The notes beneath the pieces are model-generated. The model searched no databases, had not been told where the DNA came from, and saw only the letters and a program-made list of their open reading frames with translations. From a virus (lineage: Duplodnaviria > Heunggongvirae > Uroviricota > Caudoviricetes): a stretch of DNA of 15,503 nucleotides. Positions 2,974-14,976 of the stretch are shown here, piece by piece. The number at the start of each line of letters is the position of its first letter. The stretch's first letter is position 1. Where the stretch lies: positions 1 through 15,503 of IMG/VR virus record IMGVR_UViG_2579778894_000014. One strand, written 5' to 3'. The translations under genes and the position numbers were made by a program.

Positions 2974-3396
2974 TTATGCCGCCGAGCAGCTCCTACGCAA
3001 AGTCCTGATAGCCTGAGGCTTTGACTGAACCGACTGATCCATTTCGAGCACCACATCCAGCATGGCTAAGCAACCGTCAATAAATCCCTCTGCCGCCTGA
3101 AGCCTCTTCAGAACGTGGGTGTGAGATACGCCGAGCTTCTCACCCATCGCCCGCACGGGCATGGCCTGGACGTAATGCCACTCAAGGAGCGTGCACAGAT
3201 ACGGATCTTTTTTCTTCAGGCAGCTCATAGCGGAGTTGATGATAAGACCGTCATTGTCACTGCATTTCAGCCTTCCAGACTGCGTCGCGGGTAGCAGATT
3301 CTTAAACCCGGCTGCAACAGGAGGAAAGTAGACGCTACCACCTTCACTCGCTGCCCAGCCACCCCAGCGCTCTAAAACCTGTTGAATATTACGCAT
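2974..3396 (-). CDS. Q: Late-gene antitermination protein Q (Phage_antitermQ family)
   Basis: 140 aa. N-terminus MRNIQQVLERWGGWAA...AAGFK and later KRLQAAEGFIDGCLAMLD resemble E. coli prophage Q proteins (QuuD-like) as I recall them. GAGGT SD upstream. Lies upstream of and co-directional with the lysis and packaging genes. Confidence 0.8.
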   Translation of the reverse strand: MRNIQQVLERWGGWAASEGGSVYFPPVAAGFKNLLPATQSGRLKCSDNDGLIINSAMSCLKKKDPYLCTLLEWHYVQAMPVRAMGEKLGVSHTHVLKRLQAAEGFIDGCLAMLDVVLEMDQSVQSKPQAIRTLRRSCSAA

Positions 3397-3441
3397 AGCT
3401 CTGACCTCTACGTTTTGCTACGTTTGGAAATTTTCTACTAC

Positions 3442-3672
3442 TCAATACTCGTTGAATGTCAGGTGGCCGCTAACACTGACGTTTGGCCCGTCAGATAACA
3501 CAAGCTGGAAATTGTCGTCGCAAACAGAGCAGCCGAGGTCAATAACTACCGTTTTGTCGTGTTTATGCGCTCGCATGGCGACATCGCGAATAAACACGCT
3601 GTTACTAGCGCAGCGTGGGCAGGTAATTTCGTTATTTCCGTCGATATGATTTTTTAATCCTGAAACTTTCAT
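3442..3672 (-). CDS. Small zinc-ribbon protein (CxxC...CxxC), function unknown
   Basis: 76-aa ORF with GGAG SD 8 nt upstream of the ATG at 3672. Paired cysteine motifs CPRC and CSVC. Sits between the iteron array and Q. Confidence 0.6.
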   Translation of the reverse strand: MKVSGLKNHIDGNNEITCPRCASNSVFIRDVAMRAHKHDKTVVIDLGCSVCDDNFQLVLSDGPNVSVSGHLTFNEY

Positions 3673-3721
3673 GTTGTTTACTCCAGCTAGTTATTTGCAA
3701 ATATTTGCAAGTTAATTTCCG

Positions 3722-3987
3722 GGTGACGGCTAGGTGACGCGTAATTACATATCCGTCACCTGCTGCAAAGCGCGCCATATAAAGCCTGAAGATGTTTTAG
3801 GTGACAGGTGACGGTTGATTTTAGTTCTATATATATATAAGCGATCGTATAATACCTAAAATACACACTCTCGCGTATATAGTTTTAAATTCTGCCGTCA
3901 CCTGTCACCTTTAGCACATTCCCCATTGTTTTATATATACTTTTTAAGGTGACGCTTAAGCGTTTTGCCGTCACCTAGCCGTCACCT
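3722..3987. repeat. Mirror-symmetric iteron array (10 GGTGAC/GTCACC hexamers) flanking an AT-rich core; candidate replication origin
   Basis: GGTGAC at 3722, 3733, 3800, 3807, 3948; GTCACC at 3755, 3897, 3904, 3970, 3981. Outer pairs are spaced 11 bp, inner pairs 7 bp, and all positions are mirror-symmetric about ~3854. The outer arms are near-perfect inverted repeats (GGTGACGGCTAGGTGACG). The centre 3814-3896 is AT-rich with a TATATATATA run. TTGCAA boxes at 3695-3710 and 4002-4017 flank the array. It lies immediately 3' of the replication-protein gene. Confidence 0.6.
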
Positions 3988-3989
3988 TT

Positions 3990-6251
3990 TTACAATCCAG
4001 ATTGCAAAATTTCGCAAGATTTATATATTTCGCGCAATTCTTCGTTGCTGAAATCGTTATTTTTTACAAGAATCCAAATCCTATATACAAACCCGTCAAT
4101 TTTTACGCGTACGGGTTCCCGCTTTGTTCTTTCTTTCAAAATGCGAGTAATATGCTTCTGGTTAATTTCTACATCCATTCCTGCTTCTGCCAGTATTGCG
4201 TTAACAATTTGTTGATAAGTCATTGCTGGCACAGGCGGATTATCCAGGATTTCAATAAGAGCAGCCTCCACATCGCTCTTATTGCTTTCAATCATCAGAA
4301 GGCGTTCTTTCGTCTCGGGGGCGCGCTGCCAGTTAAAGCGAGACAGGTCAACGCCCATTAGATACCAGTACACCTGGGCGATAAAGTCGCTGTCGCTTAG
4401 CGCACCGTACAGGCTGGCGTAATGCTCTTCAGTTGCGGCGAAGTCAGGGCCCCCCAGCACAGCTATACGTCGGTCTTCCTCTGGCAGCGCCAGCGCATCA
4501 AAGTGGTTGGTGTAGAACAGAAAGCCGGTGTATATATCCATCGTTTTTTTGCTGCCATATTTGCGGTTCACTTCAAACCGTGGTTCTGTCAGCACGTCAC
4601 GGATCTTATCGTTCACCTCATACCGCTTATCGTTTTCGCGCACCTCGTCAATGGTGCATAGAAGTGTATTGTACAGATAGTCATGGAACTGGTTATCGCA
4701 CAGGATCTTCATGCGAGTACGAGCACAGTTCCACGGGCCAAGCACGCGCTCCATTAACTGACTGACCCATCCTCTGCCCGTACCATGTGCGGTAGCCACA
4801 TGCAGAATAGAAATCGGGCATCGACGCTCCGGACGCTGAACCATCCACCCCAGACGGGCGATGAAAAACTCGCGCTGCCAGGCATCAGGTACCAGATACG
4901 CCATATGATTAAGGAACGTGGACACCTTACTTGTATCCGCTGTACGTGGATGCTCAGGCATATAAAATTCGTTTATCTCAAACCGCCCGTCGAAACGCTC
5001 GATAATACGTCCCGCACCGGGCTTATAGCCTGTCGTCTCAGCAATCTTCTTATGCCGATGCTCTATCCACCGTTTGGTTGCGGGAGTTGGTTGTCCTTTC
5101 CCTTCTGGCGGGAACTGGTAAGGCGCCATCAGGTTTTTGAACGACTTCATATCCATCATGCACTGATATGGCGGTCGGCTAAGATCACATACCTGGTCAC
5201 CCTCGATGACGTAGATAAAGCGTTCCAGAAAATGAGCTGTCATATCTGTATTAATATCGGTAAATTCAGGCTTATCGCCATCTTCAGCCACCGTGAGATC
5301 TTCGAACAGGGATTGCGTATAGCCGTAGCCTTCCAGCCAGTCGGCATCAGTAAGCCCCGCATCGGTGTTGTGCATGCTTTTAAAATGTCCCTGTTCAAAT
5401 CCCCCCGTCCCTTTTGGGAAATACTTAATGGATGTTTCGCTGCAACCGTTGCTGTATTCTGACTCATCCCGAAACGGTTTCAGATTGCGGGAACCATCAG
5501 AGCTGACTGACAGAGTCCACCCGTTCGCGTCAAGCCAGTCGGCGACATCATCTGTCGCGGAAGGATCAACACAGGAAAGGTCACGCTGACGTCCTGCACC
5601 TGCGGTATAGCTGTCTTTCACGGGTAAGTTATCCGCCAGACGCTGCCACAGGCTTTCGAGCTGTTCAGATGTAATTTTCAGAGGTTCGCCGGGCAAACCG
5701 CTGTCCCACTGAATACGTTCGCCTGCCGGATGGGTACCACAAGCCACAAACTGCTGGCCCTTAGCGAGCAGCTCTATTTGTTTGTTTTCGCCTTCCAGGC
5801 GGTGACCACGTTTACGGTAGTCGCCATCAACAGCAATCAGGTACAGGCATTTATGACTGTCAGCCCGCCAGCGACGTGGCGGAAGTTCCCCCAGGCATGA
5901 TAGGATAATATTGCGTACGATCTCCTGCATCCCGGCGTCATTGATATCGCAGTCCAGAGCCACCACCCCGTCGCCAGTACGAACGCAAATACCGTAATCG
6001 GGTTCGTTCGACCACCGGGCAAAATCGTTTTCCGTAACAACATAGTTAGCCCAGTCGGGGATACCAACAACCTTACGTTGGCCATTGTAGCGACTGGGGG
6101 TTTTGCCGAAATTATGAGACAGCTTGCTATTAGGCGACAGTTCTGCACAGGGATTGGACACCACAGGTAAAAGCCTGTCTGTCATCCCCAACACCAGATC
6201 GAAGTAGAACCACTCATCGGGCGTAGCTCCCCATGGTTTGTTATCAGACAT
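3990..6251 (-). CDS. Replication protein, primase-like (primase-polymerase-type N-terminal region; P4 alpha-like size and context)
   Basis: 753-aa ORF whose start overlaps the stop of the Cro-like gene, suggesting translational coupling. The N-terminal region contains VVALDCDI (a DxD-type catalytic-like motif) and GTHPAG. hhhhDE-like TIDEV is present in the C-terminal half. I could not find a canonical Walker A GxxxxGK[ST], so helicase activity is not supported from sequence. Iteron array lies immediately downstream. Confidence 0.65.
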   Translation of the reverse strand: MSDNKPWGATPDEWFYFDLVLGMTDRLLPVVSNPCAELSPNSKLSHNFGKTPSRYNGQRKVVGIPDWANYVVTENDFARWSNEPDYGICVRTGDGVVALDCDINDAGMQEIVRNIILSCLGELPPRRWRADSHKCLYLIAVDGDYRKRGHRLEGENKQIELLAKGQQFVACGTHPAGERIQWDSGLPGEPLKITSEQLESLWQRLADNLPVKDSYTAGAGRQRDLSCVDPSATDDVADWLDANGWTLSVSSDGSRNLKPFRDESEYSNGCSETSIKYFPKGTGGFEQGHFKSMHNTDAGLTDADWLEGYGYTQSLFEDLTVAEDGDKPEFTDINTDMTAHFLERFIYVIEGDQVCDLSRPPYQCMMDMKSFKNLMAPYQFPPEGKGQPTPATKRWIEHRHKKIAETTGYKPGAGRIIERFDGRFEINEFYMPEHPRTADTSKVSTFLNHMAYLVPDAWQREFFIARLGWMVQRPERRCPISILHVATAHGTGRGWVSQLMERVLGPWNCARTRMKILCDNQFHDYLYNTLLCTIDEVRENDKRYEVNDKIRDVLTEPRFEVNRKYGSKKTMDIYTGFLFYTNHFDALALPEEDRRIAVLGGPDFAATEEHYASLYGALSDSDFIAQVYWYLMGVDLSRFNWQRAPETKERLLMIESNKSDVEAALIEILDNPPVPAMTYQQIVNAILAEAGMDVEINQKHITRILKERTKREPVRVKIDGFVYRIWILVKNNDFSNEELREIYKSCEILQSGL

Positions 6252-6254
6252 GGG

Positions 6255-6455
6255 TTACGCCTTTTGTCTAGCTGTCACTTCCTGAAAAAGCTTTTCTATC
6301 GCACGTACTGTAGAAAAGCGAGGGTCAGAATGAACCCCGGTGAGAAGCCGACTAATAGAAGACTGCTTCACGCCTGCAATTTCGGCAATTTGGTTTTGGG
6401 TATACCCTGAATCAATCAAGCTTTTGACCATCTCTTGTGGTGTTAGTCCGGACAT
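6255..6455 (-). CDS. Cro-like HTH (XRE-family) DNA-binding protein
   Basis: 66 aa with helix-turn-helix signature QNQIAEIAGVKQSSISRLL. GGAGA SD 7 nt upstream. Divergent from the CI-type repressor across a 141-bp region and first gene of the rightward replication operon. Confidence 0.75.
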   Translation of the reverse strand: MSGLTPQEMVKSLIDSGYTQNQIAEIAGVKQSSISRLLTGVHSDPRFSTVRAIEKLFQEVTARQKA

Positions 6456-6596: not shown

Positions 6597-7271
6597 ATGA
6601 TTGATACTACCGATATCCTTTCTCAAAACATCAAGTACCTGATGGACAAAACCAAGATAAGCTCGATAACTGAGCTGGCACGTCGGTTACAGCTGAACCA
6701 ACCAACGCTACACAGGCTGGTATCAGGAGAGGTGAAAGATCCGAAATACGCAACGTTAAAGCAGATCGCCGACTACTTCCACGTGTCACCAATAGACCTG
6801 GCAGAAAGGAGCCTTCAAGAAATGGAGAAAGAGGACGCGACAGGTATAAAAACGTATATTTCTCTTAGGTTTAATAAAGTACCTGTTTTGGGAAACACTC
6901 AGCTAGGCGTTGGAGGACTTTGGAGCGACACCCAATATTCAGTAGGTAGCAGTGATGGTTTCATATACTGGCCGACAAAGGATGAAGATGCATACGCCCT
7001 GAAATGTGTTGGTGATTCAATGATGCCTAGAATCAAAGAGGGTGAGTTCGTAATCGTCGAACCCAACCACGACTACACTCCTGGTGATGAAGTACTTGTG
7101 GTTACCCGGGACGGTGAGGTCATGGTTAAAACCTTCTTGTTCGAACGCGATGGCCTGTTCCATCTAATATCTGTAAATGAAGATCATCCACCAGTCAGAG
7201 TACCACGCGAAAACATTGAAAAAATCCATTACGTGGCGGGGATCGCCAAATCCGCGCTACGCATGTACTAA
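6597..7271 (+). CDS. cI: CI-type prophage repressor (N-terminal HTH plus C-terminal LexA-like S24 peptidase domain)
   Basis: 224 aa. N-terminal HTH (ISSITELARRLQLNQPTLHRL). C-terminal CVGDSMMPRIKEGEFVIV with the GDSM serine nucleophile and a downstream VMVKTF lysine, typical of LexA/CI autocleaving repressors. Confidence 0.85.
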   Translation: MIDTTDILSQNIKYLMDKTKISSITELARRLQLNQPTLHRLVSGEVKDPKYATLKQIADYFHVSPIDLAERSLQEMEKEDATGIKTYISLRFNKVPVLGNTQLGVGGLWSDTQYSVGSSDGFIYWPTKDEDAYALKCVGDSMMPRIKEGEFVIVEPNHDYTPGDEVLVVTRDGEVMVKTFLFERDGLFHLISVNEDHPPVRVPRENIEKIHYVAGIAKSALRMY

Positions 7272-9492: not shown

Positions 9493-10794
9493 ATGCCAGA
9501 CGTTCACGCACAACTTTCTCCATCATCAGCGCATCGATGGATGCGCTGCCCAGGAAGTCTGGCGCTGGAGGCCACACAACCGGATAAAGAAACAACTTTT
9601 GCAATCGAGGGCACTACAGCGCACGCGCTTGCTGAAAAAGTTCTACGAAACAGGCAAAGCCACCCGGAACACTACGCCGGATGCAATGTTTCTATGTTTC
9701 TCGGCTCATACCCCCTTCGCGAAAATCCTGATGATACATCTGGCCCACAGGTGGATGATGAAATGGTCGAAGCCGTCGGCCGGTATGTTGATACGGTCTG
9801 GACTCTTGCACAGAATAATGAACTATTGGTTGAACAACGTGTTGATTTCTCACATATAACGGGTGTGGAAGAATCTTTCGGAACTGCCGACGGCATAATC
9901 ATCGCTGGTAACGAATTACAAATCCACGACCTGAAATATGGCAAAGGCGTCCGCATTGATGCAGAACAAAATGAGCAACTACAACTGTATGCTCTGGGTG
10001 CTCTCGAACAATTCAGCATGCTGTATGACTTTGAGACTGTAAGATTATTTATTCACCAGCCAAGGCTCAACCACGTTTCAGAATGGTCGTTAACCGTACA
10101 GGAACTTCAGTCTTTCGGTGAACGGGCACTGGAGGCCGCAACCAGTGCGATCCTTGTTCTCAATATTGCTGAATGCGAAGGCATTGAGACACTACCGCTG
10201 GAAAACTTCATACCTGGAGAAAAACAGTGCCGCTTCTGTAAAGCAAAAGCTATTTGCACTGCCCAGAAAATGCAGCATTTACAAACAGCGGCCAGCGATT
10301 TTGAAGATCTGACAAAGCCTGTCAGCGAAATAATCACCAATGCCAGCGCACGTGTACCTCTGTTAACCATTGAGCAGCTTGCAGAGATCTATAGCCAGGC
10401 CGACTTTATTGAATCCTGGCTAAAGGCAGTACGGGACCGGGTTCACGATGAACTCAATGCCGGACATCCGGTACCGGGGTTTAAACTGGTAACAGGAAAA
10501 CAAGGTAACCGGGCCTGGAGTGATGAAGAGGCAGCTCGCGCACTTCTGAAGGACCAGTTCAGGTACAAAACTGAAGAAGTATTCGACTTTAAACTTATTA
10601 GTCCCACAAAAGCCGAAAAACTTATCAAAAAGGCCAGTCCGCGCCGTTGGTCAAAAGTCGAGGCACTGATAACACGAGCTGATGGAAAACCCACCGTCGT
10701 TCCCGAGTCAGACCCACGCCCCGCACTCAATATCAACCCTGTAAATGATTTCGACGACGTATCCGACGATACGCTAACCGCAGACCTCATCTGA
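9493..10794 (+). CDS. PD-(D/E)XK nuclease, DUF2800-like (Cas4-like phage exonuclease)
   Basis: 433 aa. N-terminal [14 protein letters not shown] is characteristic of DUF2800 proteins as I recall them. [23 protein letters not shown] fits a D...D-x-K nuclease core, and the [10 protein letters not shown] cysteine cluster is Cas4-like. GGAGGG SD upstream. Confidence 0.75.
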
Positions 10795-10809: not shown

Positions 10810-11358
10810 ATGAAACTGAAGCTGAACAATGTTCGTCTGGCCTTCCCGTCTCTGTTTGAAGCTAAAACTGTAAACGGCGAAGGCGATCCGCGTTTCTCCG
10901 CAGTATTTTTAATGTCTCCCAAACACCCACAACTGGAAGAAATCCGTAAAGCTATGAAGCAGGTAGCGAAGGAAAAATGGGGAGAGAAGTGGGAGCCCAT
11001 TTATAACCAGCTGGAGAAAAAACTCAATCTGTGCCTGCATGATGGTGATGAAAAAGCAGAGTATGAAGGCTTCCCCGGTAATTTCTTCCTGAATGCTGCT
11101 AACAAAGCGCGCCCAGCTGTTCTTGATCGCGATCGTTCGCCACTTATTCAGGCTGACGGACGTCCCTATGCAGGGTGCTATGTAAACGCCGTTATCGATA
11201 TCTGGGCACAGGACAATAATTTCGGTAAACGCATTAATGCCTCACTCGGCGGAGTCCAGTTCCTGCGAGACGGCGATGCATTCGCTGGCGGCGGAGTGGC
11301 AAGCGCTGACGATTTCGACGATATCAGCGAAGGTGCTGATGCTGAAGCACTAATTTAA
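10810..11358 (+). CDS. DUF2815-like phage protein (proposed ssDNA-binding protein)
   Basis: 182 aa. N-terminus MKLKLNNVRLAFPSLFEAK resembles DUF2815 family members, which typically pair with DUF2800 and a family A polymerase. Acidic C-terminal tail DDFDDISEGADAEALI. AAGGAA SD upstream. Confidence 0.7.
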   Translation: MKLKLNNVRLAFPSLFEAKTVNGEGDPRFSAVFLMSPKHPQLEEIRKAMKQVAKEKWGEKWEPIYNQLEKKLNLCLHDGDEKAEYEGFPGNFFLNAANKARPAVLDRDRSPLIQADGRPYAGCYVNAVIDIWAQDNNFGKRINASLGGVQFLRDGDAFAGGGVASADDFDDISEGADAEALI

Positions 11359-11410: not shown

Positions 11411-12040
11411 TCACTCAGGAATCTTAATCTTTCTCAATTCTTTATTTAGTTCACAGATCTTTTTCTTAGACGGGAAAGTATCATACATCCAAAAACCAAC
11501 AGTCTCTAAAACTATTATCATAACCATATACACAAGATAATTTAAAAGGCCTTCATTTTGCCCTATGGAAATAATGCAGATAATAGAAAAAAGGGTAAAC
11601 AGCACAAAACACAGAAAGGAAAACAGACGACTAATAATAAATAAAAAACCTGAAAAATCAACATTAATAAAAAACACTCCGTTATCTTTCTCTATATAAT
11701 TCTGAAGCTTAATCAACTGATTTATATACTGTCTTTTTTCTAATCTATTGCAAATGTAAATAACATCTCTTCGGTTATAAGATGATTGCAATTTCAGCGC
11801 ATCACGAATAATTTTATCATTTATTCTTTTTTCTATGGCACTCTTATCCTCCTCATCCAGATAACGTTCATACTTAACTAAATATAAAATTAACTTCTTA
11901 ACATATTTAGGCTCTTTATACTTATAATTAAAAATGATCTTTCTTATCCAGACTCCCATAACAATCAAACATGAAAAAATATATCCAGCTATTTTCTCCA
12001 GATGCTCTGTATGGTCAATCAAGTATTGGATCATATGCAT
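11411..12040 (-). CDS. Membrane protein of unknown function in an AT-rich inserted segment (moron)
   Basis: 209-aa ORF on the opposite strand to the flanking replication genes. The segment ~11400-12080 is conspicuously AT-rich (roughly 30% GC by eye) against ~50-55% in the neighbours. Predicted N-terminal TM (IAGYIFSCLIVMGVWI), a Lys/Glu-rich middle region and 2 C-terminal TM helices (FLFIISRLFSFLCFVLFTLFSIICIISI; LVYMVMIIVLETVGFWM). Confidence 0.65.
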   Translation of the reverse strand: MHMIQYLIDHTEHLEKIAGYIFSCLIVMGVWIRKIIFNYKYKEPKYVKKLILYLVKYERYLDEEDKSAIEKRINDKIIRDALKLQSSYNRRDVIYICNRLEKRQYINQLIKLQNYIEKDNGVFFINVDFSGFLFIISRLFSFLCFVLFTLFSIICIISIGQNEGLLNYLVYMVMIIVLETVGFWMYDTFPSKKKICELNKELRKIKIPE

Positions 12041-12086: not shown

Positions 12087-14150
12087 ATGTCCAATATACT
12101 ATGGGGCGACCTGGAAACCTATTGCGAAATCCCTATTACGAACGGTACCCATGCGTATGCCGAAGGCGTTGAAGTGATGCTTTTCGCATGGGCTATCAAC
12201 GACGGGCCAGTAAACGTGTGGGATATCACTGCCGGTGGTGGTATTCCACACGGCTTATACGAAGCAATCGCAGACCCTGAAACCCTGCTTTATTTCCATA
12301 ACTCTCACTTCGACCGCACCGTTCTGCGTTATGCAATGCCGCGCCTGGCACCGCCAGTCGAACGTTGGCGCGACACAATGGTGCAGGCGCTGGCGCACGG
12401 CCTCCCGGGGTCTCTGGGGGAACTCTGCGAAATACTCGGCGTCCCGCAAGACAAAGCGAAGGACAAAGAAGGTAAAGCGCTGATCCAGCTGTTCTGTAAG
12501 CCACGCCCGAAAAACAGCAAACTGCGTCGGGCCACCAGTAAAACCCACCCGGAAGAATGGCGGCGCTTTGTTGCTTACGCCGGACTGGATATCGAGGCAA
12601 TGCGCGAAGTCTATAAACGTCTGCCGAAGTGGAATTATCAGGGGACAGAACTGGCGCTCTGGCATCGTGATCAGCAGATCAACGACCGGGGCGTCTGCAT
12701 GGACATTCAACTCGCGCGCGCTGCGATCGAAGCGGTAGACCAGGAGCAAAAGCGCCTGGCAAAGCGTACACAGGAAATGACTGATGGCGAAGTGCAGGCA
12801 GCCACACAACGAGACGCGTTGATTAAGCACATTGTTGAATCCTACGGTGTGGAGCTACCAGACATGCAACGCAGTACTCTGGAACGTCGTATTGCCGACC
12901 CCGATTTACCATCTGCCGTGAAAGAACTGCTGGCTATCCGCCTGCAGGCCAGTACTACCAGCACCAGTAAATACAAGGCACTGATGAAAGGCGTAAGCCA
13001 CGACGGGCGCTTACGCGGTACGCTACAGTTCTGCGGGGCGTCACGTACCGGTCGTTGGGCCGGACGGCTATTCCAGCCCCAGAACCTTCCCCGCCCTTCA
13101 CTAAAACAGGAACAAATAGACGAAGGCATCGAAGCACTGAAAGCCGGATGTGCAGACCTGCTGTTTGACAATATCATGGAACTAACCAGTTCAGCGTTAC
13201 GTGGCTGCATTATCGCGCCAACAGGCAAAAAGCTGGTGGTAAGTGACTTGTCGAACATTGAAGGCCGTATGCTGGCATGGCTGGCGGGAGAAGAATGGAA
13301 ACTGAATGCATTCAGAGAGTACGACGCCGGAACGGGTCCGGACTTATATAAACTGGCGTATGCAAAAGCTTTCGATATTGCACCAGATGATGTTGATAAA
13401 CACATGCGTCAGATCGGTAAAGTCATGGAACTCGGTCTGGGTTATGGTGGTGGTGTGTCGGCCTTCATCACTTTTGCACTGGTTTACGGTCTCGATCTCG
13501 ACGAGCTGGCGAACGCCGCACTACCAAACATTCCCCGCGATGTTATCCGCGAGGCGAAAAGCTGGTACGACGAATCGGTTAAACGCAAGTCAACCTACGG
13601 GCTTTCTGAACGGGTATTTATCGCCTGCGACTCACTTAAACGTCTCTGGCGCCGGGCGCATCCCGCGACCTGTGATTTCTGGTACGAACTGGAGCGCACC
13701 GTCCGCACTGCAATCGCCACACCGCAAAAAACATTGTATTGCGGTTATCTTAAAATCCGCCGCGATGGCGCGTGGCTGCGCATACAGCTACCATCCGGAC
13801 GCGCTGTATGCTACCCGTCTCCGGTTATCGAAAAAGGGAATATCACCTACATGGGGGTTAACTCTTATTCGCGTAAATGGCAACGACTCAAAACCTACGG
13901 CGGAAAGCTGGTGGAGAACATCACCCAGGCGGCCGCCCGCGACATTCTGGCCGGAAACATGCCGCTTATCGAAGATGCCGGTTACAGCATTGTGCTGACG
14001 GTACACGACGAGGTGATCACCGAAGCACCTGACACAGAAGATTTCAACGATAAAGCGCTTTCCGCGCTTCTCTCCACTGACCCCGAATGGGCGCCCGATA
14101 TCCCACTGAACGCTGGCGGTTTTGAGGCGTACCACTACAAAAAAGATTGA
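12087..14150 (+). CDS. Family A DNA polymerase (PolA-like) with N-terminal 3'-5' exonuclease domain
   Basis: 687 aa. Exo motif WGDLETY near the N-terminus. Polymerase motif A ([20 protein letters not shown]), motif B ([16 protein letters not shown]) and motif C (VHDEV). Confidence 0.9.
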
Positions 14151-14214: not shown

Positions 14215-14976
14215 ATGCAGGAACTAACTGAAATGCCGATCACCTATCCATACCCGAGAGAAACTTTTCCTGACTTTTTGAGGGAGTGTGGGTTCACCAA
14301 TTTTTCCCACGAACAGCGTGAGACTTGTGACTGCTATCGTTTAACGAATGGCGTAATTGTTAACCTTTACACCACCCGGACCATTCAGTTTCAAGGTAAC
14401 CCTCAAGAACGTCCCAATGTTGAAACTGCAATAATGACCCATTTAGGAACGCCGCCCACGGCAACACCACTAGCCGTAGAACAGCCATCTGAGCTCCCCA
14501 AAAAGATATTCATTGTTCACGGCCATGACCATACTGCAAAGGAGCAACTTGAGCTAATCCTTCATAAACTTGGATTACCAGACCATTTCATTTTGCAGAA
14601 TACGGGAGGGACTGGACTCACCATTATTGAAGAGCTTGAACGTGAAATTGGGCAAGGACAAACTGCTACCCGTTTCGGGATTGTTCTTTTGACACCTGAT
14701 GATATGGGATACTCAAAGCGCGCCGGTGAAGCAGAAATCCAACCCCGCGCAAGACAGAACGTTGTACTCGAGATGGGTATGCTTCTTTCGTCCTTAGGGC
14801 GCAGCAATGTAGCAATCCTTCAGAAACAGCACCTAGAACAGCCTTCTGATGCTAACGGGATTTTGTATCTGAATTTCAACGACCATGTACGTGAAACAGT
14901 TCCTCGTCTAGTGCAACGGTTACAAAATTCTGGTTTCGAATTTACACAAGCTCAAATAGCTAACGCTTCCTCGTAA
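14215..14976 (+). CDS. Two-domain protein: unknown N-terminal domain plus C-terminal TIR-like Rossmannoid domain (CAP12/PycTIR-type family)
   Basis: 253-aa ORF with AAGGAA SD upstream; last gene of the operon before a strong terminator. The C-terminal ~150 aa contains KKIFIVHGHDH, GGTGLTIIEELE, FGIVLLTPDD and NVVLEMGMLLSSLG, which I recognise as the pattern of prokaryotic TIR-like nucleotide-binding domains (conserved Glu followed by Gly). The N-terminal ~95 aa has no recognised family. Domain assignment is from memory, not a search. Confidence 0.6.
   Translation: MQELTEMPITYPYPRETFPDFLRECGFTNFSHEQRETCDCYRLTNGVIVNLYTTRTIQFQGNPQERPNVETAIMTHLGTPPTATPLAVEQPSELPKKIFIVHGHDHTAKEQLELILHKLGLPDHFILQNTGGTGLTIIEELEREIGQGQTATRFGIVLLTPDDMGYSKRAGEAEIQPRARQNVVLEMGMLLSSLGRSNVAILQKQHLEQPSDANGILYLNFNDHVRETVPRLVQRLQNSGFEFTQAQIANASS

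What the first reader, a model, noticed from the sequence alone, without database searches (positions are those of the whole stretch)
3691..4020. A 330-bp mirror-symmetric array of ten GGTGAC iterons around an AT-rich core, next to the replication gene
Ten copies of GGTGAC/GTCACC are placed with exact mirror symmetry about ~3854: outer doublets with 11-bp spacing (3722/3733 and 3970/3981), single reversed copies (3755 and 3948), and inner doublets with 7-bp spacing (3800/3807 and 3897/3904). The outer doublets are near-perfect inverted repeats of GGTGACGGCTAGGTGACG, and TTGCAA boxes flank both ends. The core between the inner doublets is AT-rich. The intervening sequences are not palindromic, so this looks like a protein-binding architecture rather than a simple hairpin. 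The hexamer resembles the P4 alpha-binding iteron (GGTGAACA) as I recall it. Most parsimonious reading is an origin bound by the adjacent 753-aa replication protein; a complex operator controlling the downstream Zn-ribbon/Q transcription unit is the alternative.
Basis: seen in the sequence. Interest (0 to 1): 0.75.

Follow-up and report, generated by a model that had tools for sequence, protein, structure and literature searches.

The report
Prophage replication origin with swappable specificity
The ten mirror-arranged GGTGAC repeats are very probably the replication origin of an E. coli prophage, read by a DNA-binding domain at the end of the neighbouring replication protein; this is a familiar type of origin, but here relatives show protein and repeats changing together.

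Summary
Ten perfect GGTGAC hexamers lie in 3722-3986 with dyad symmetry about position 3854, around an AT-rich core. [quoted passage not shown]

The origin reading is strongly supported by comparison, although nothing has been shown biochemically.
- Rep orthologues in Escherichia, Serratia, Izhakiella and Xenorhabdus (58-100% identity; the Erwinia gene is disrupted) carry the same array at nearly the same positions.
- The two central bases of all ten repeats switch together between lineages: GA, GG, AA, GT or TG.
- The switch tracks a short stretch of Rep's C-terminal domain, predicted to be a winged helix. It does not track the rest of Rep, the 76-aa protein, Q, Cro or CI.
- In otherwise identical E. 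coli prophages, a 450-bp cassette (wing-coding sequence plus array) has been exchanged.
- Only the repeats are complementary between the two arms, so a hairpin is not what is conserved.

The layout matches published staphylococcal pathogenicity island (SaPI) origins, but the replication protein is of a different family: primase-polymerase, then an NrS-1-like helicase, then a winged helix. I rate it a new member of a known kind, of moderate interest.

The parts
3895..3987 (.). Rep-proximal arm of the origin. Five 9-bp repeats AGGTGAC(G/A)G at 3895-3903(-), 3902-3910(-), 3947-3955(+), 3968-3976(-) and 3979-3987(-). The last one ends 2 nt before the Rep stop codon (in Rep-sense coordinates the first hexamer starts 4 nt after the stop).
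   Evidence: positions, no degenerate copies. (same positions relative to the stop codon in orthologous loci).
3815..3894 (.). AT-rich core, the presumed DNA-unwinding element. It contains (TA)6 at 3828-3839, CGCGTATATA at 3872-3881, and a conserved TATATA block about 13 bp inside each inner doublet.
   Evidence: 30% GC, alternating purine-pyrimidine runs. (least stable 40-80 bp duplex outside ORF 11411-12040). (TATATACGCGAGAG and TATATAGAnCTA conserved across genera; the centre varies in length and sequence).
3721..3814 (.). Rep-distal arm. Five repeats at 3721-3729(+), 3732-3740(+), 3753-3761(-), 3799-3807(+) and 3806-3814(+), the mirror image of the proximal arm.
3990..6251 (-). Replication protein (Rep), 753 aa. 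Domains: primase-polymerase (AEP type) at about residues 75-185, DUF5906/NrS-1-like SF3 helicase-type NTPase at about 456-659, C-terminal winged helix at about 660-753.
3993..4331 (-). Coding sequence for Rep residues 641-753, the predicted winged-helix origin-binding domain. The recognition helix QKHITRILKERT (698-709) is encoded at 4125-4160. The wing strands VRVKI-DG-FVYRIWI (714-727) are encoded at 4071-4112 and carry the residues that track the repeat class.
3700..4150 (.). Exchangeable specificity cassette: winged-helix wing coding plus the whole array. It is 62-82% identical between window and E. coli O121 prophage, apart from a conserved island at 4000-4050 (94%), while both flanks are 100% identical at the junctions.
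   Evidence: identity in 50-bp bins..
3695..3710 (.). Perfect 16-bp palindrome TTGCAAATATTTGCAA just outside the distal arm, about 23 nt upstream of the 76-aa gene's start codon. Function unknown. A similar box at 4002-4017 lies inside the last Rep codons (CEILQ).
   Evidence: the palindrome is kept by paired changes in other lineages: TTGCAG..CTGCAA, TTGAAA..TTTCAA.

Best explanation
The array is the replication origin of a lambdoid-organised temperate phage, integrated as an E. coli prophage.

**Proposed mechanism.**
- Rep is made from the early rightward operon (cro, rep, array, 76-aa gene, Q).
- Rep binds the ten 9-bp repeats AGGTGAC(G/A)G through its C-terminal winged-helix domain.
- The two central bases of the repeat are read mainly by residues on the beta-hairpin wing.
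- Five repeats sit on each side of an 80-bp AT-rich, alternating purine-pyrimidine core. The two sets are in mirror orientation.
- Two Rep oligomers (probably hexamers, as for other SF3-type helicases) would therefore assemble facing each other across the core and melt it.
- Rep's own primase-polymerase domain would lay down primers, which the phage's own DNA polymerase (12087-14150) extends in both directions.

**Shown here.**
- The array, its symmetry and its enrichment.
- Its conservation at fixed positions after the Rep stop codon across genera.
- The concerted switching of all ten repeats.
- The association of that switch with the winged-helix wing only.
- The cassette exchange.

**Inferred.** Binding, oligomeric state, melting, priming and bidirectionality.
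For: **1. Enrichment and symmetry** are far beyond chance.

**2. Conserved geometry.** The array begins 4 nt after the Rep stop codon. Hexamer starts relative to the stop are 4+ 15+ 37- 81+ 88+ | 178- 185- 230+ 252- 263-. The same pattern, within a few bp, occurs in Escherichia, Izhakiella, Erwinia, Serratia and Xenorhabdus loci whose Reps are only 58-82% identical.

**3. Concerted switching.** Within each genome nearly all sites carry the same word. Between lineages the two central bases switch together: GGTGAC, GGTGGC, GGTAAC, GGTGTC, GGTTGC.

**4. Repeat class follows the wing, not the rest of Rep.**
- 14 pairs of Reps are at least 95% identical over residues 1-700 but have different repeat classes, and their wing segments are only 54-71% identical.
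- L083 and L087 are 81% identical in the body, 100% identical in the wing, and share the class AA.
- Wing motifs are class-specific:

| Repeat class | Wing motif |
|---|---|
| GA | REPVRVKIDGFVY |
| GG | REAVKLKVDGMTV |
| AA | RQPTDLVKIDGMGY |
| GT | REPVRVKIDGCTN |
| TG | GQAGAIKFEGKTE |

**6. Cassette exchange.** Window and O121 prophage are 100% identical on both sides of a divergent 3700-4150 block. In phage 606R2 the homology with the window ends at 3688, so the array travels with rep and not with the downstream gene.

**7. Other candidate readers are excluded.**
- The 76-aa protein is identical in GA and GG prophages.
- Q is identical in a GA and a GG prophage.
- Cro and CI differ between two GG prophages.

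**8. Core properties.** The core is the least stable duplex nearby. There are no DnaA boxes.

**9. Published precedent.** SaPI origins have 6-12 repeats immediately downstream of rep, an AT-rich centre, opposite orientation on the two sides, and a Rep C-terminal winged helix (PMC9371898).

**10. Generality.** Remote Reps (31-36% identity) and PrimPol-VapE replication proteins also have dyad repeat arrays right after their stop codons, with other words.
Against: - There are no experimental data: binding, melting and origin function are all inferred.
- Rep's Walker A motif is HGTGRGW, with Arg where the NrS-1 helicase has Lys (GTGKG). This is invariant in the clade. Whether Rep is itself an active helicase or only an initiator and primase is therefore open. 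The related phage also encodes a separate 'DNA helicase'.
- Each arm has five sites, not six, so the site-to-hexamer relation is unclear.
- A single strand of the region would fold into a long hairpin (z = -9.3), so a role for extruded structure cannot be excluded.
Confidence: 0.85

Rival explanations
1. The origin is recognised as a structure, not as repeated words. On this view the dyad region extrudes as a stem-loop or cruciform and Rep assembles on that structure. This was proposed for pRN1 ORF904 and Bordetella phage BIP-1, whose replication proteins have the same domain order.
For: - The single strand folds into a 296-nt hairpin of -114.5 kcal/mol, z = -9.3.
- Berkner et al. 2014 (PMC4234260) showed that a 100-bp stem-loop 3' of orf904 is necessary and sufficient in cis. 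They proposed stem-loops for AEP + SF3 + winged-helix proteins in general.
- The concerted changes in the repeats also preserve complementarity (16 pairs changed on both sides).
Against: - Conserved complementarity is confined to the repeats and 4 adjacent bases: 45 of the 47 consensus pairs.
- Spacers are 0.43-0.55 complementary under a gapped alignment, and the core is unpaired.
- Pairing alone would not require all five pairs to carry the same word. It would not explain direct repeats within an arm, nor the tie to the winged-helix wing.
Confidence: 0.07
2. The array is mainly a regulatory roadblock or operator. On this view Rep bound between rep and Q controls read-through into the late-gene activator Q (or autoregulates), with replication initiating elsewhere.
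For: - The array lies in the transcription path cro-rep-array-(76 aa)-Q.
- No predicted terminator lies between the Rep stop codon and the 76-aa gene. The only terminator-like site in 3300-4300 lies inside the 76-aa coding sequence.
- A Q homologue follows the array in most loci.
Against: - An AT-rich, easily melted core flanked by mirror sets of sites is origin architecture, not operator architecture.
- The same array follows Reps in loci with no detectable Q (L109, L110, L114-L116).
- No other candidate origin cluster exists in the 42.7-kb phage record.
- This role is compatible with, not exclusive of, origin function.
Confidence: 0.05
3. The array is an operator for the downstream 76-aa Zn-ribbon protein, or for CI or Cro.
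For: Adjacency to the 76-aa gene. Palindromic TTGCAA boxes at the edges.
Against: - The 76-aa protein is 100% identical in GA-type and GG-type prophages and is missing from most loci with the array.
- Cro and CI differ between two prophages with identical GG repeats.
- The cI-cro intergenic region has no GGTGAC or TTGCAA-type sites.
Confidence: 0.01

Closest known systems
SaPI (Staphylococcus aureus pathogenicity island) replication origins and their Rep / Pri-Rep self-loading helicases (Ubeda 2007 and 2012, as summarised in Qiao et al. 2022, PMC9371898)
   Same: - 6-12 short (5-6 nt) repeats immediately downstream of the rep ORF.
- An AT-rich centre with half the repeats on each side, in opposite orientation across the centre.
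- Repeats read by a winged-helix domain at the Rep C-terminus.
- Island-specific repeat words.
- No separate loader.
- Primase fused to Rep in SaPI5.
   Different: - There is no detectable sequence homology: the PDB sequence search returns only the NrS-1 helicase.
- The helicase here is DUF5906/NrS-1-like, whereas SaPI Rep is described as an AAA+ protein of the pre-sensor II insert clade.
- The primase here is an AEP-type primase-polymerase.
- The host is Gram-negative, and the element is a full temperate phage with its own DNA polymerase rather than a satellite.
- The geometry here is a strict 5+5 dyad, fixed to the base pair across genera.
Bacteriophage P4 alpha protein with ori and crr (Ziegelin & Lanka 1995; Yeo et al. 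2002, as cited in PMC4234260)
   Same: - One polypeptide with primase, SF3-type helicase and a C-terminal winged helix that binds repeats at the origin.
- The repeat word, as I recall it (TGTTCACC, reverse complement GGTGAACA), shares GGTGA with GGTGAC.
   Different: - The P4 primase is Toprim/DnaG-type; here it is AEP PrimPol.
- P4 needs a second cis site (crr) kilobases away; here there is a single cluster in 42.7 kb.
- The P4 repeats are, from memory, not a 5+5 dyad abutting the stop codon of the gene.
pRN1 ORF904 replicon and the BIP-1/BPP-1 phage replication proteins (Berkner et al. 2014, PMC4234260)
   Same: - Same domain order: AEP prim-pol, then SF3 helicase, then winged helix.
- The cis-acting origin lies directly 3' of the replication gene, and dyad symmetry is present.
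   Different: - The pRN1 origin is described as a stem-loop with conserved structure but unconserved sequence and no repeats.
- Here the conserved elements are ten identical words, while spacers and core are not complementary.
- I found no comparable array in BIP-1 26,700-27,200.
SV40 large T antigen and papillomavirus E1 origins
   Same: An SF3 helicase with its own origin-binding domain. Short recognition words sit in dyad-symmetric pairs next to easily melted DNA, and the helicase assembles as two head-to-head hexamers (established knowledge).
   Different: - The binding domain is N-terminal to the helicase and is not a winged helix.
- The sites are central with the AT tract to one side.
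- There is no fused primase, and the viruses are eukaryotic.
Phage lambda ori with O protein
   Same: A lambdoid gene order in which the origin lies in the early rightward transcript, so transcription passes through it. Repeats sit next to AT-rich DNA.
   Different: - The lambda origin lies inside the O gene, with four direct 19-bp repeats and the AT-rich region on one side.
- O recruits host DnaB through P.
- There is no homology to this Rep.

Membership tests
SaPI-type repeat origin (architecture) | Repeats located immediately downstream of the rep ORF | tested here: met
   The first hexamer starts 4 nt after the Rep stop codon in the window and in most of the orthologous loci examined, and within 1-5 nt in the rest except Arsenophonus.
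SaPI-type repeat origin (architecture) | Six to twelve short repeats, split in two sets by a central AT-rich region, with at least two per side pointing in opposite directions | tested here: met
   Ten repeats, five per side. The inner doublets face each other across an 80-bp core of 30% GC.
SaPI-type repeat origin (architecture) | Rep C-terminal winged-helix domain that specifies the repeat word | tested here: met
   Predicted winged helix. The repeat class co-varies with wing residues only. Direct binding was not tested.
SaPI Rep protein family (homology) | Sequence homology of Rep to SaPI Rep / PriRep helicases | tested here: not met
   A phmmer search of full-length Rep against all PDB chains gives only the NrS-1 primase helicase domain at E <= 0.01. 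I am assuming the library includes the SaPI Rep structures reported in PMC9371898. Pfam gives DUF5906 and Prim-Pol.
SaPI-type repeat origin (architecture) | ATP-independent origin binding and melting, and plasmid replication driven by rep plus ori | not testable with these tools
   Requires EMSA, KMnO4 footprinting and replication assays.
P4 alpha / ori-crr system | Toprim (DnaG-type) primase domain | tested here: not met
   The N-terminal domain matches PF09250 Prim-Pol (AEP) at E 2e-7. There is no Toprim hit.
P4 alpha / ori-crr system | A second cis-acting repeat cluster (crr) distant from ori | tested here: not met
   Only one GGTGAC cluster exists in the 42.7-kb record of phage vB_EcoM-606R2 and in the 15.5-kb window.
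P4 alpha / ori-crr system | C-terminal winged helix binding octamer repeats TGTTCACC | tested here: inconclusive
pRN1 ORF904-type replicon | AEP prim-pol + SF3 helicase + C-terminal winged helix in one protein | tested here: met
pRN1 ORF904-type replicon | Origin is a stem-loop 3' of the gene whose structure, not sequence, is conserved, with no repeats | tested here: not met
   Only the repeat columns pair in the consensus of ten loci, and spacers are near background complementarity. Repeats are the conserved feature.
Lambda-type ori (O/P) | Repeats inside the initiator gene, O and P homologues | tested here: not met
   The array is intergenic. Rep has no lambda O or P domains.

The most novel reading that the evidence does not exclude
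**A mobile specificity cassette.** The winged-helix wing coding and the origin form a contiguous 450-bp block that recombination swaps between otherwise identical prophages. This gives at least five mutually insulated replicon types that differ only at the two central bases of a 9-bp word and at a handful of wing residues. On this reading the diversity is adaptive: it would avoid cross-talk, competition or origin hijacking between co-resident phages and satellites. It would also provide a natural, directly testable recognition code for a winged-helix wing.

**A wider rule.** The same '5+5 dyad right after the stop codon' layout may apply generally to PrimPol-DUF5906 and PrimPol-VapE replication modules in Proteobacteria. 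That would allow origins to be annotated automatically in thousands of prophages.
Probability: 0.45. Interest if true: 0.6.

Novelty: new member of a known kind. Interest (0 to 1): 0.48.

Why it matters
**Annotation.** This gives a concrete origin and initiator assignment for a family of enterobacterial prophages. Their replication protein is currently annotated only as 'DUF5906 domain-containing' or 'hypothetical', and their origin is unannotated in RefSeq.

**A testable recognition code.** The natural series of five repeat classes, paired with small changes in the winged-helix wing, is a ready-made experiment on how a wing reads two base pairs. Reps that are 99-100% identical outside the cassette would serve as controls.

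**Origin architecture across protein families.** The result shows that the SaPI-like origin layout recurs with an unrelated helicase family. It also suggests that for AEP + SF3 + winged-helix replication proteins, repeated words rather than a stem-loop as such can be the conserved origin feature.

Tried and rejected
- **Long hairpin or RNA element.** The strand folds well. However, the consensus of ten loci keeps only the repeat pairs, and spacers are near background complementarity. Rfam gives only sub-threshold eukaryotic miRNA-hairpin matches.
- **Operator of the 76-aa protein, Q, Cro or CI.** Excluded because these proteins are identical, or different, in ways that do not match the repeat classes.
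- **CI-type operators at the TTGCAA boxes.** The cI-cro intergenic region has no similar sequence.
- **Promoter or terminator in the array.** The consensus scan finds none on the sense strand.
- **DnaA boxes.** None in the array.
- **A sixth, degenerate repeat per arm.** None within 1 mismatch of the hexamer or 2 mismatches of the 9-mer.
- **A second crr-like cluster.** None.
- **Re-reading the published BIP-1 'stem-loop' as a repeat array.** No clear array in BIP-1 26,700-27,200, so this was dropped.
- **Original SaPI origin papers.** PMC1964853 and PMC3804134 are not held, so I relied on the summary in PMC9371898.
- **Literature on this phage family's origin.** Searches found nothing.
Full report
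**1. The observation**

- Mirror partners sum to 7708 or 7709, so the arrangement is a dyad about position 3854.
- The window holds 15 copies against 5.4 +/- 2.3 in shuffles, and ten of them sit within 265 bp.
- None of 200,000 random placements reached 10 of 10 symmetric sites.
- There are no near-miss copies in the region.
- The 42.7-kb record of a closely related phage has only this one cluster.
- The true unit is a 9-mer, AGGTGAC(G/A)G.
- The core 3813-3896 is 30% GC, contains (TA)6 and CGCGTATATA, and is the least stable duplex in the window apart from one AT-rich ORF.

Even so, spacer complementarity is only 0.43-0.55 against 0.77-0.94 in the repeat columns.

**2. Context**

The window is a lambdoid-organised prophage, 99.7% identical here to one in E. 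coli O55:H7 DEC5E. The gene layout is:

| Coordinates | Strand | Feature |
|---|---|---|
| 6597-7271 | + | CI-like repressor |
| 6255-6455 | - | Cro-like protein |
| 3990-6251 | - | 753-aa replication protein (Rep) |
| 3673-3989 | . | intergenic region holding the array |
| 3442-3672 | - | 76-aa CxxC protein |
| 2974-3396 | - | Q antiterminator |
| below 2974 | - | lysis genes and small terminase |
| 9493-10794 | + | DUF2800 protein |
| 10810-11358 | + | DUF2815 protein |
| 12087-14150 | + | DNA polymerase |

- Rep has an AEP-type Prim-Pol domain and a DUF5906 NTPase domain.
- Its only sequence relative in the PDB is the helicase domain of the NrS-1 primase-polymerase.
- The array is unannotated in RefSeq. 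Rep is 'hypothetical' in the four phage records that carry it.

**3. Comparative evidence**

*The array is conserved with Rep.* Rep orthologues were collected from genomes and viral contigs. In the enterobacterial full-length orthologues examined, the array follows the stop codon at essentially the same positions. Hexamer starts relative to the stop are 4+ 15+ 37- 81+ 88+ | 178- 185- 230+ 252- 263-. This holds in Escherichia, Izhakiella, Erwinia, Serratia and Xenorhabdus, at Rep identities down to 58%.

*The word changes, and it changes everywhere at once.* GGT and C are invariant at every site. The two central bases are lineage-specific: GA, GG, AA, GT or TG. They are the same at essentially all ten sites of a genome.

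*The class follows a short C-terminal segment of Rep.*
- 14 Rep pairs are at least 95% identical over residues 1-700 but differ in class, with 54-71% identity in residues 701-735.
- L083 and L087 are 81% identical in the body, identical in that segment, and share the class.

*A cassette has been exchanged.* Between the window and the E. coli O121 prophage, identity is 100% in the DNA flanking a divergent block at about 3700-4150. That block covers the wing-coding part of rep plus the whole array (protein differences). In phage 606R2 the similarity to the window stops at 3688, so the array goes with rep and not with the next gene.

**4. The reader domain**

- The putative recognition helix (QKHITRILKERT, 698-709) is conserved across the clade that shares GGT..C.AG.
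- The class-specific residues lie on the two wing strands (714-727): EPVRV/FVY for GA, EAVKL/MTV for GG, PTDLV/MGY for AA, EPVRV/CTN for GT.
- In Xenorhabdus a Gly/Asn change in the helix and a Thr/Lys change in the wing separate TG from GG.

**5. Rivals**

*Operator for the 76-aa protein.* This is excluded. That protein is identical in GA and GG prophages and absent from most loci with arrays. Q, Cro and CI also fail to match the classes.

*A structure-only origin.* This is the serious rival, because the strand folds well and a stem-loop origin is published for the same protein architecture in pRN1. Three observations argue that a common trans-acting reader is what is conserved:
- The consensus over ten loci retains only repeat pairs.
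- All five pairs of a genome carry the same word.
- The word tracks the wing.

*A regulatory roadblock before Q.* This cannot be excluded but would be additional to origin function. Arrays also follow Reps that have no Q nearby.

**6. Mechanism proposed**

Rep binds five sites on each side through its winged helix. Two oligomers assemble in mirror orientation across the AT-rich, alternating purine-pyrimidine core and open it. The fused primase-polymerase primes, and the phage polymerase extends.
- The site spacings of 11, 22 and 44 bp put repeats 1-4 of an arm on roughly one face of the helix. This is read directly from the coordinates.
- Transcription from the early promoter necessarily crosses the origin.
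- Steps beyond binding-site identity are inference.
- A caveat: the Walker A motif is HGTGRGW, with Arg where NrS-1 has Lys. This is invariant through the clade, so Rep's helicase activity needs testing.

**7. Comparison with known systems**

The layout is the one described for SaPI origins: 6-12 repeats directly after rep, an AT-rich centre, opposed orientation, and a C-terminal winged helix. The protein is unrelated in sequence, and the element is a complete Gram-negative temperate phage. P4 alpha is analogous in logic but fails two membership features, primase type and crr. pRN1 shares the protein architecture but not the repeat nature of the origin. Remote DUF5906 Reps and PrimPol-VapE proteins also carry dyad arrays after their stop codons, so the design is widespread.

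**8. Verdict**

It is a new member of a known kind of origin. Its distinctive value is the unusually clean natural co-variation between a winged-helix wing and its DNA word, packaged as a swappable cassette.

Noticed in passing
window 4767-4787 (-), Rep residues 489-495: The Walker A motif of the helicase-type domain reads HGTGRGW, with Arg where the homologous NrS-1 helicase has Lys (GTGKG). This is invariant in all orthologues down to 31% identity, while Walker B (CTIDEV) is canonical. It raises the question of whether Rep hydrolyses ATP like a normal SF3 helicase.
   Followed up: partly
window 3695-3710 and 4002-4017: A 16-bp perfect palindrome, TTGCAAATATTTGCAA, lies between the array and the 76-aa gene. 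Other lineages keep the palindrome through paired changes (TTGCAG..CTGCAA in L083, TTGAAA..TTTCAA in L089). A similar box lies in the last Rep codons (CEILQ), where coding may explain it. It is unlike the cI-cro operators. Its function is unknown.
   Followed up: partly
window 11411-12040 (-): A very AT-rich 209-aa ORF lies on the opposite strand, inserted between the DUF2815 gene and the DNA polymerase gene. It contains the least stable DNA in the window. It is annotated as hypothetical and looks like acquired cargo.
   Followed up: no
window 14215-14976 (+): The 253-aa ORF just downstream of the DNA polymerase is annotated as a 'TIR-like domain-containing protein' in phage vB_EcoM-606R2. It could be a defence or counter-defence gene inside the replication module.
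   Followed up: no
proteins P0046, P0049, P0056-P0120; loci L015-L019, L024: The N-terminal PrimPol part of Rep (up to 97% identity over about 330 residues) is also found fused to a VapE-type helicase (PF05272) instead of DUF5906. This indicates domain shuffling. These proteins also have dyad repeat arrays after their stop codons, with different words.
   Followed up: partly
L014 (Erwinia tracheiphila) and L002 (E. coli O121): The Erwinia rep reading frame is interrupted (translation stops after 139 aa), yet 8 of 10 repeats persist. The O121 prophage has an IS1 inserted next to a truncated Q gene. Both look like decaying prophages.
   Followed up: no
L013 (Limnobaculum allomyrinae), 300 bp after the rep stop codon: A 46%-identical Rep is followed by nine copies of a different word (TGACACAG) in a different, less symmetric layout: 4+ 12+ 24+ 89+ 97+ 203- 255+ 266+ 287-. 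This shows the geometry is not universal.
   Followed up: no
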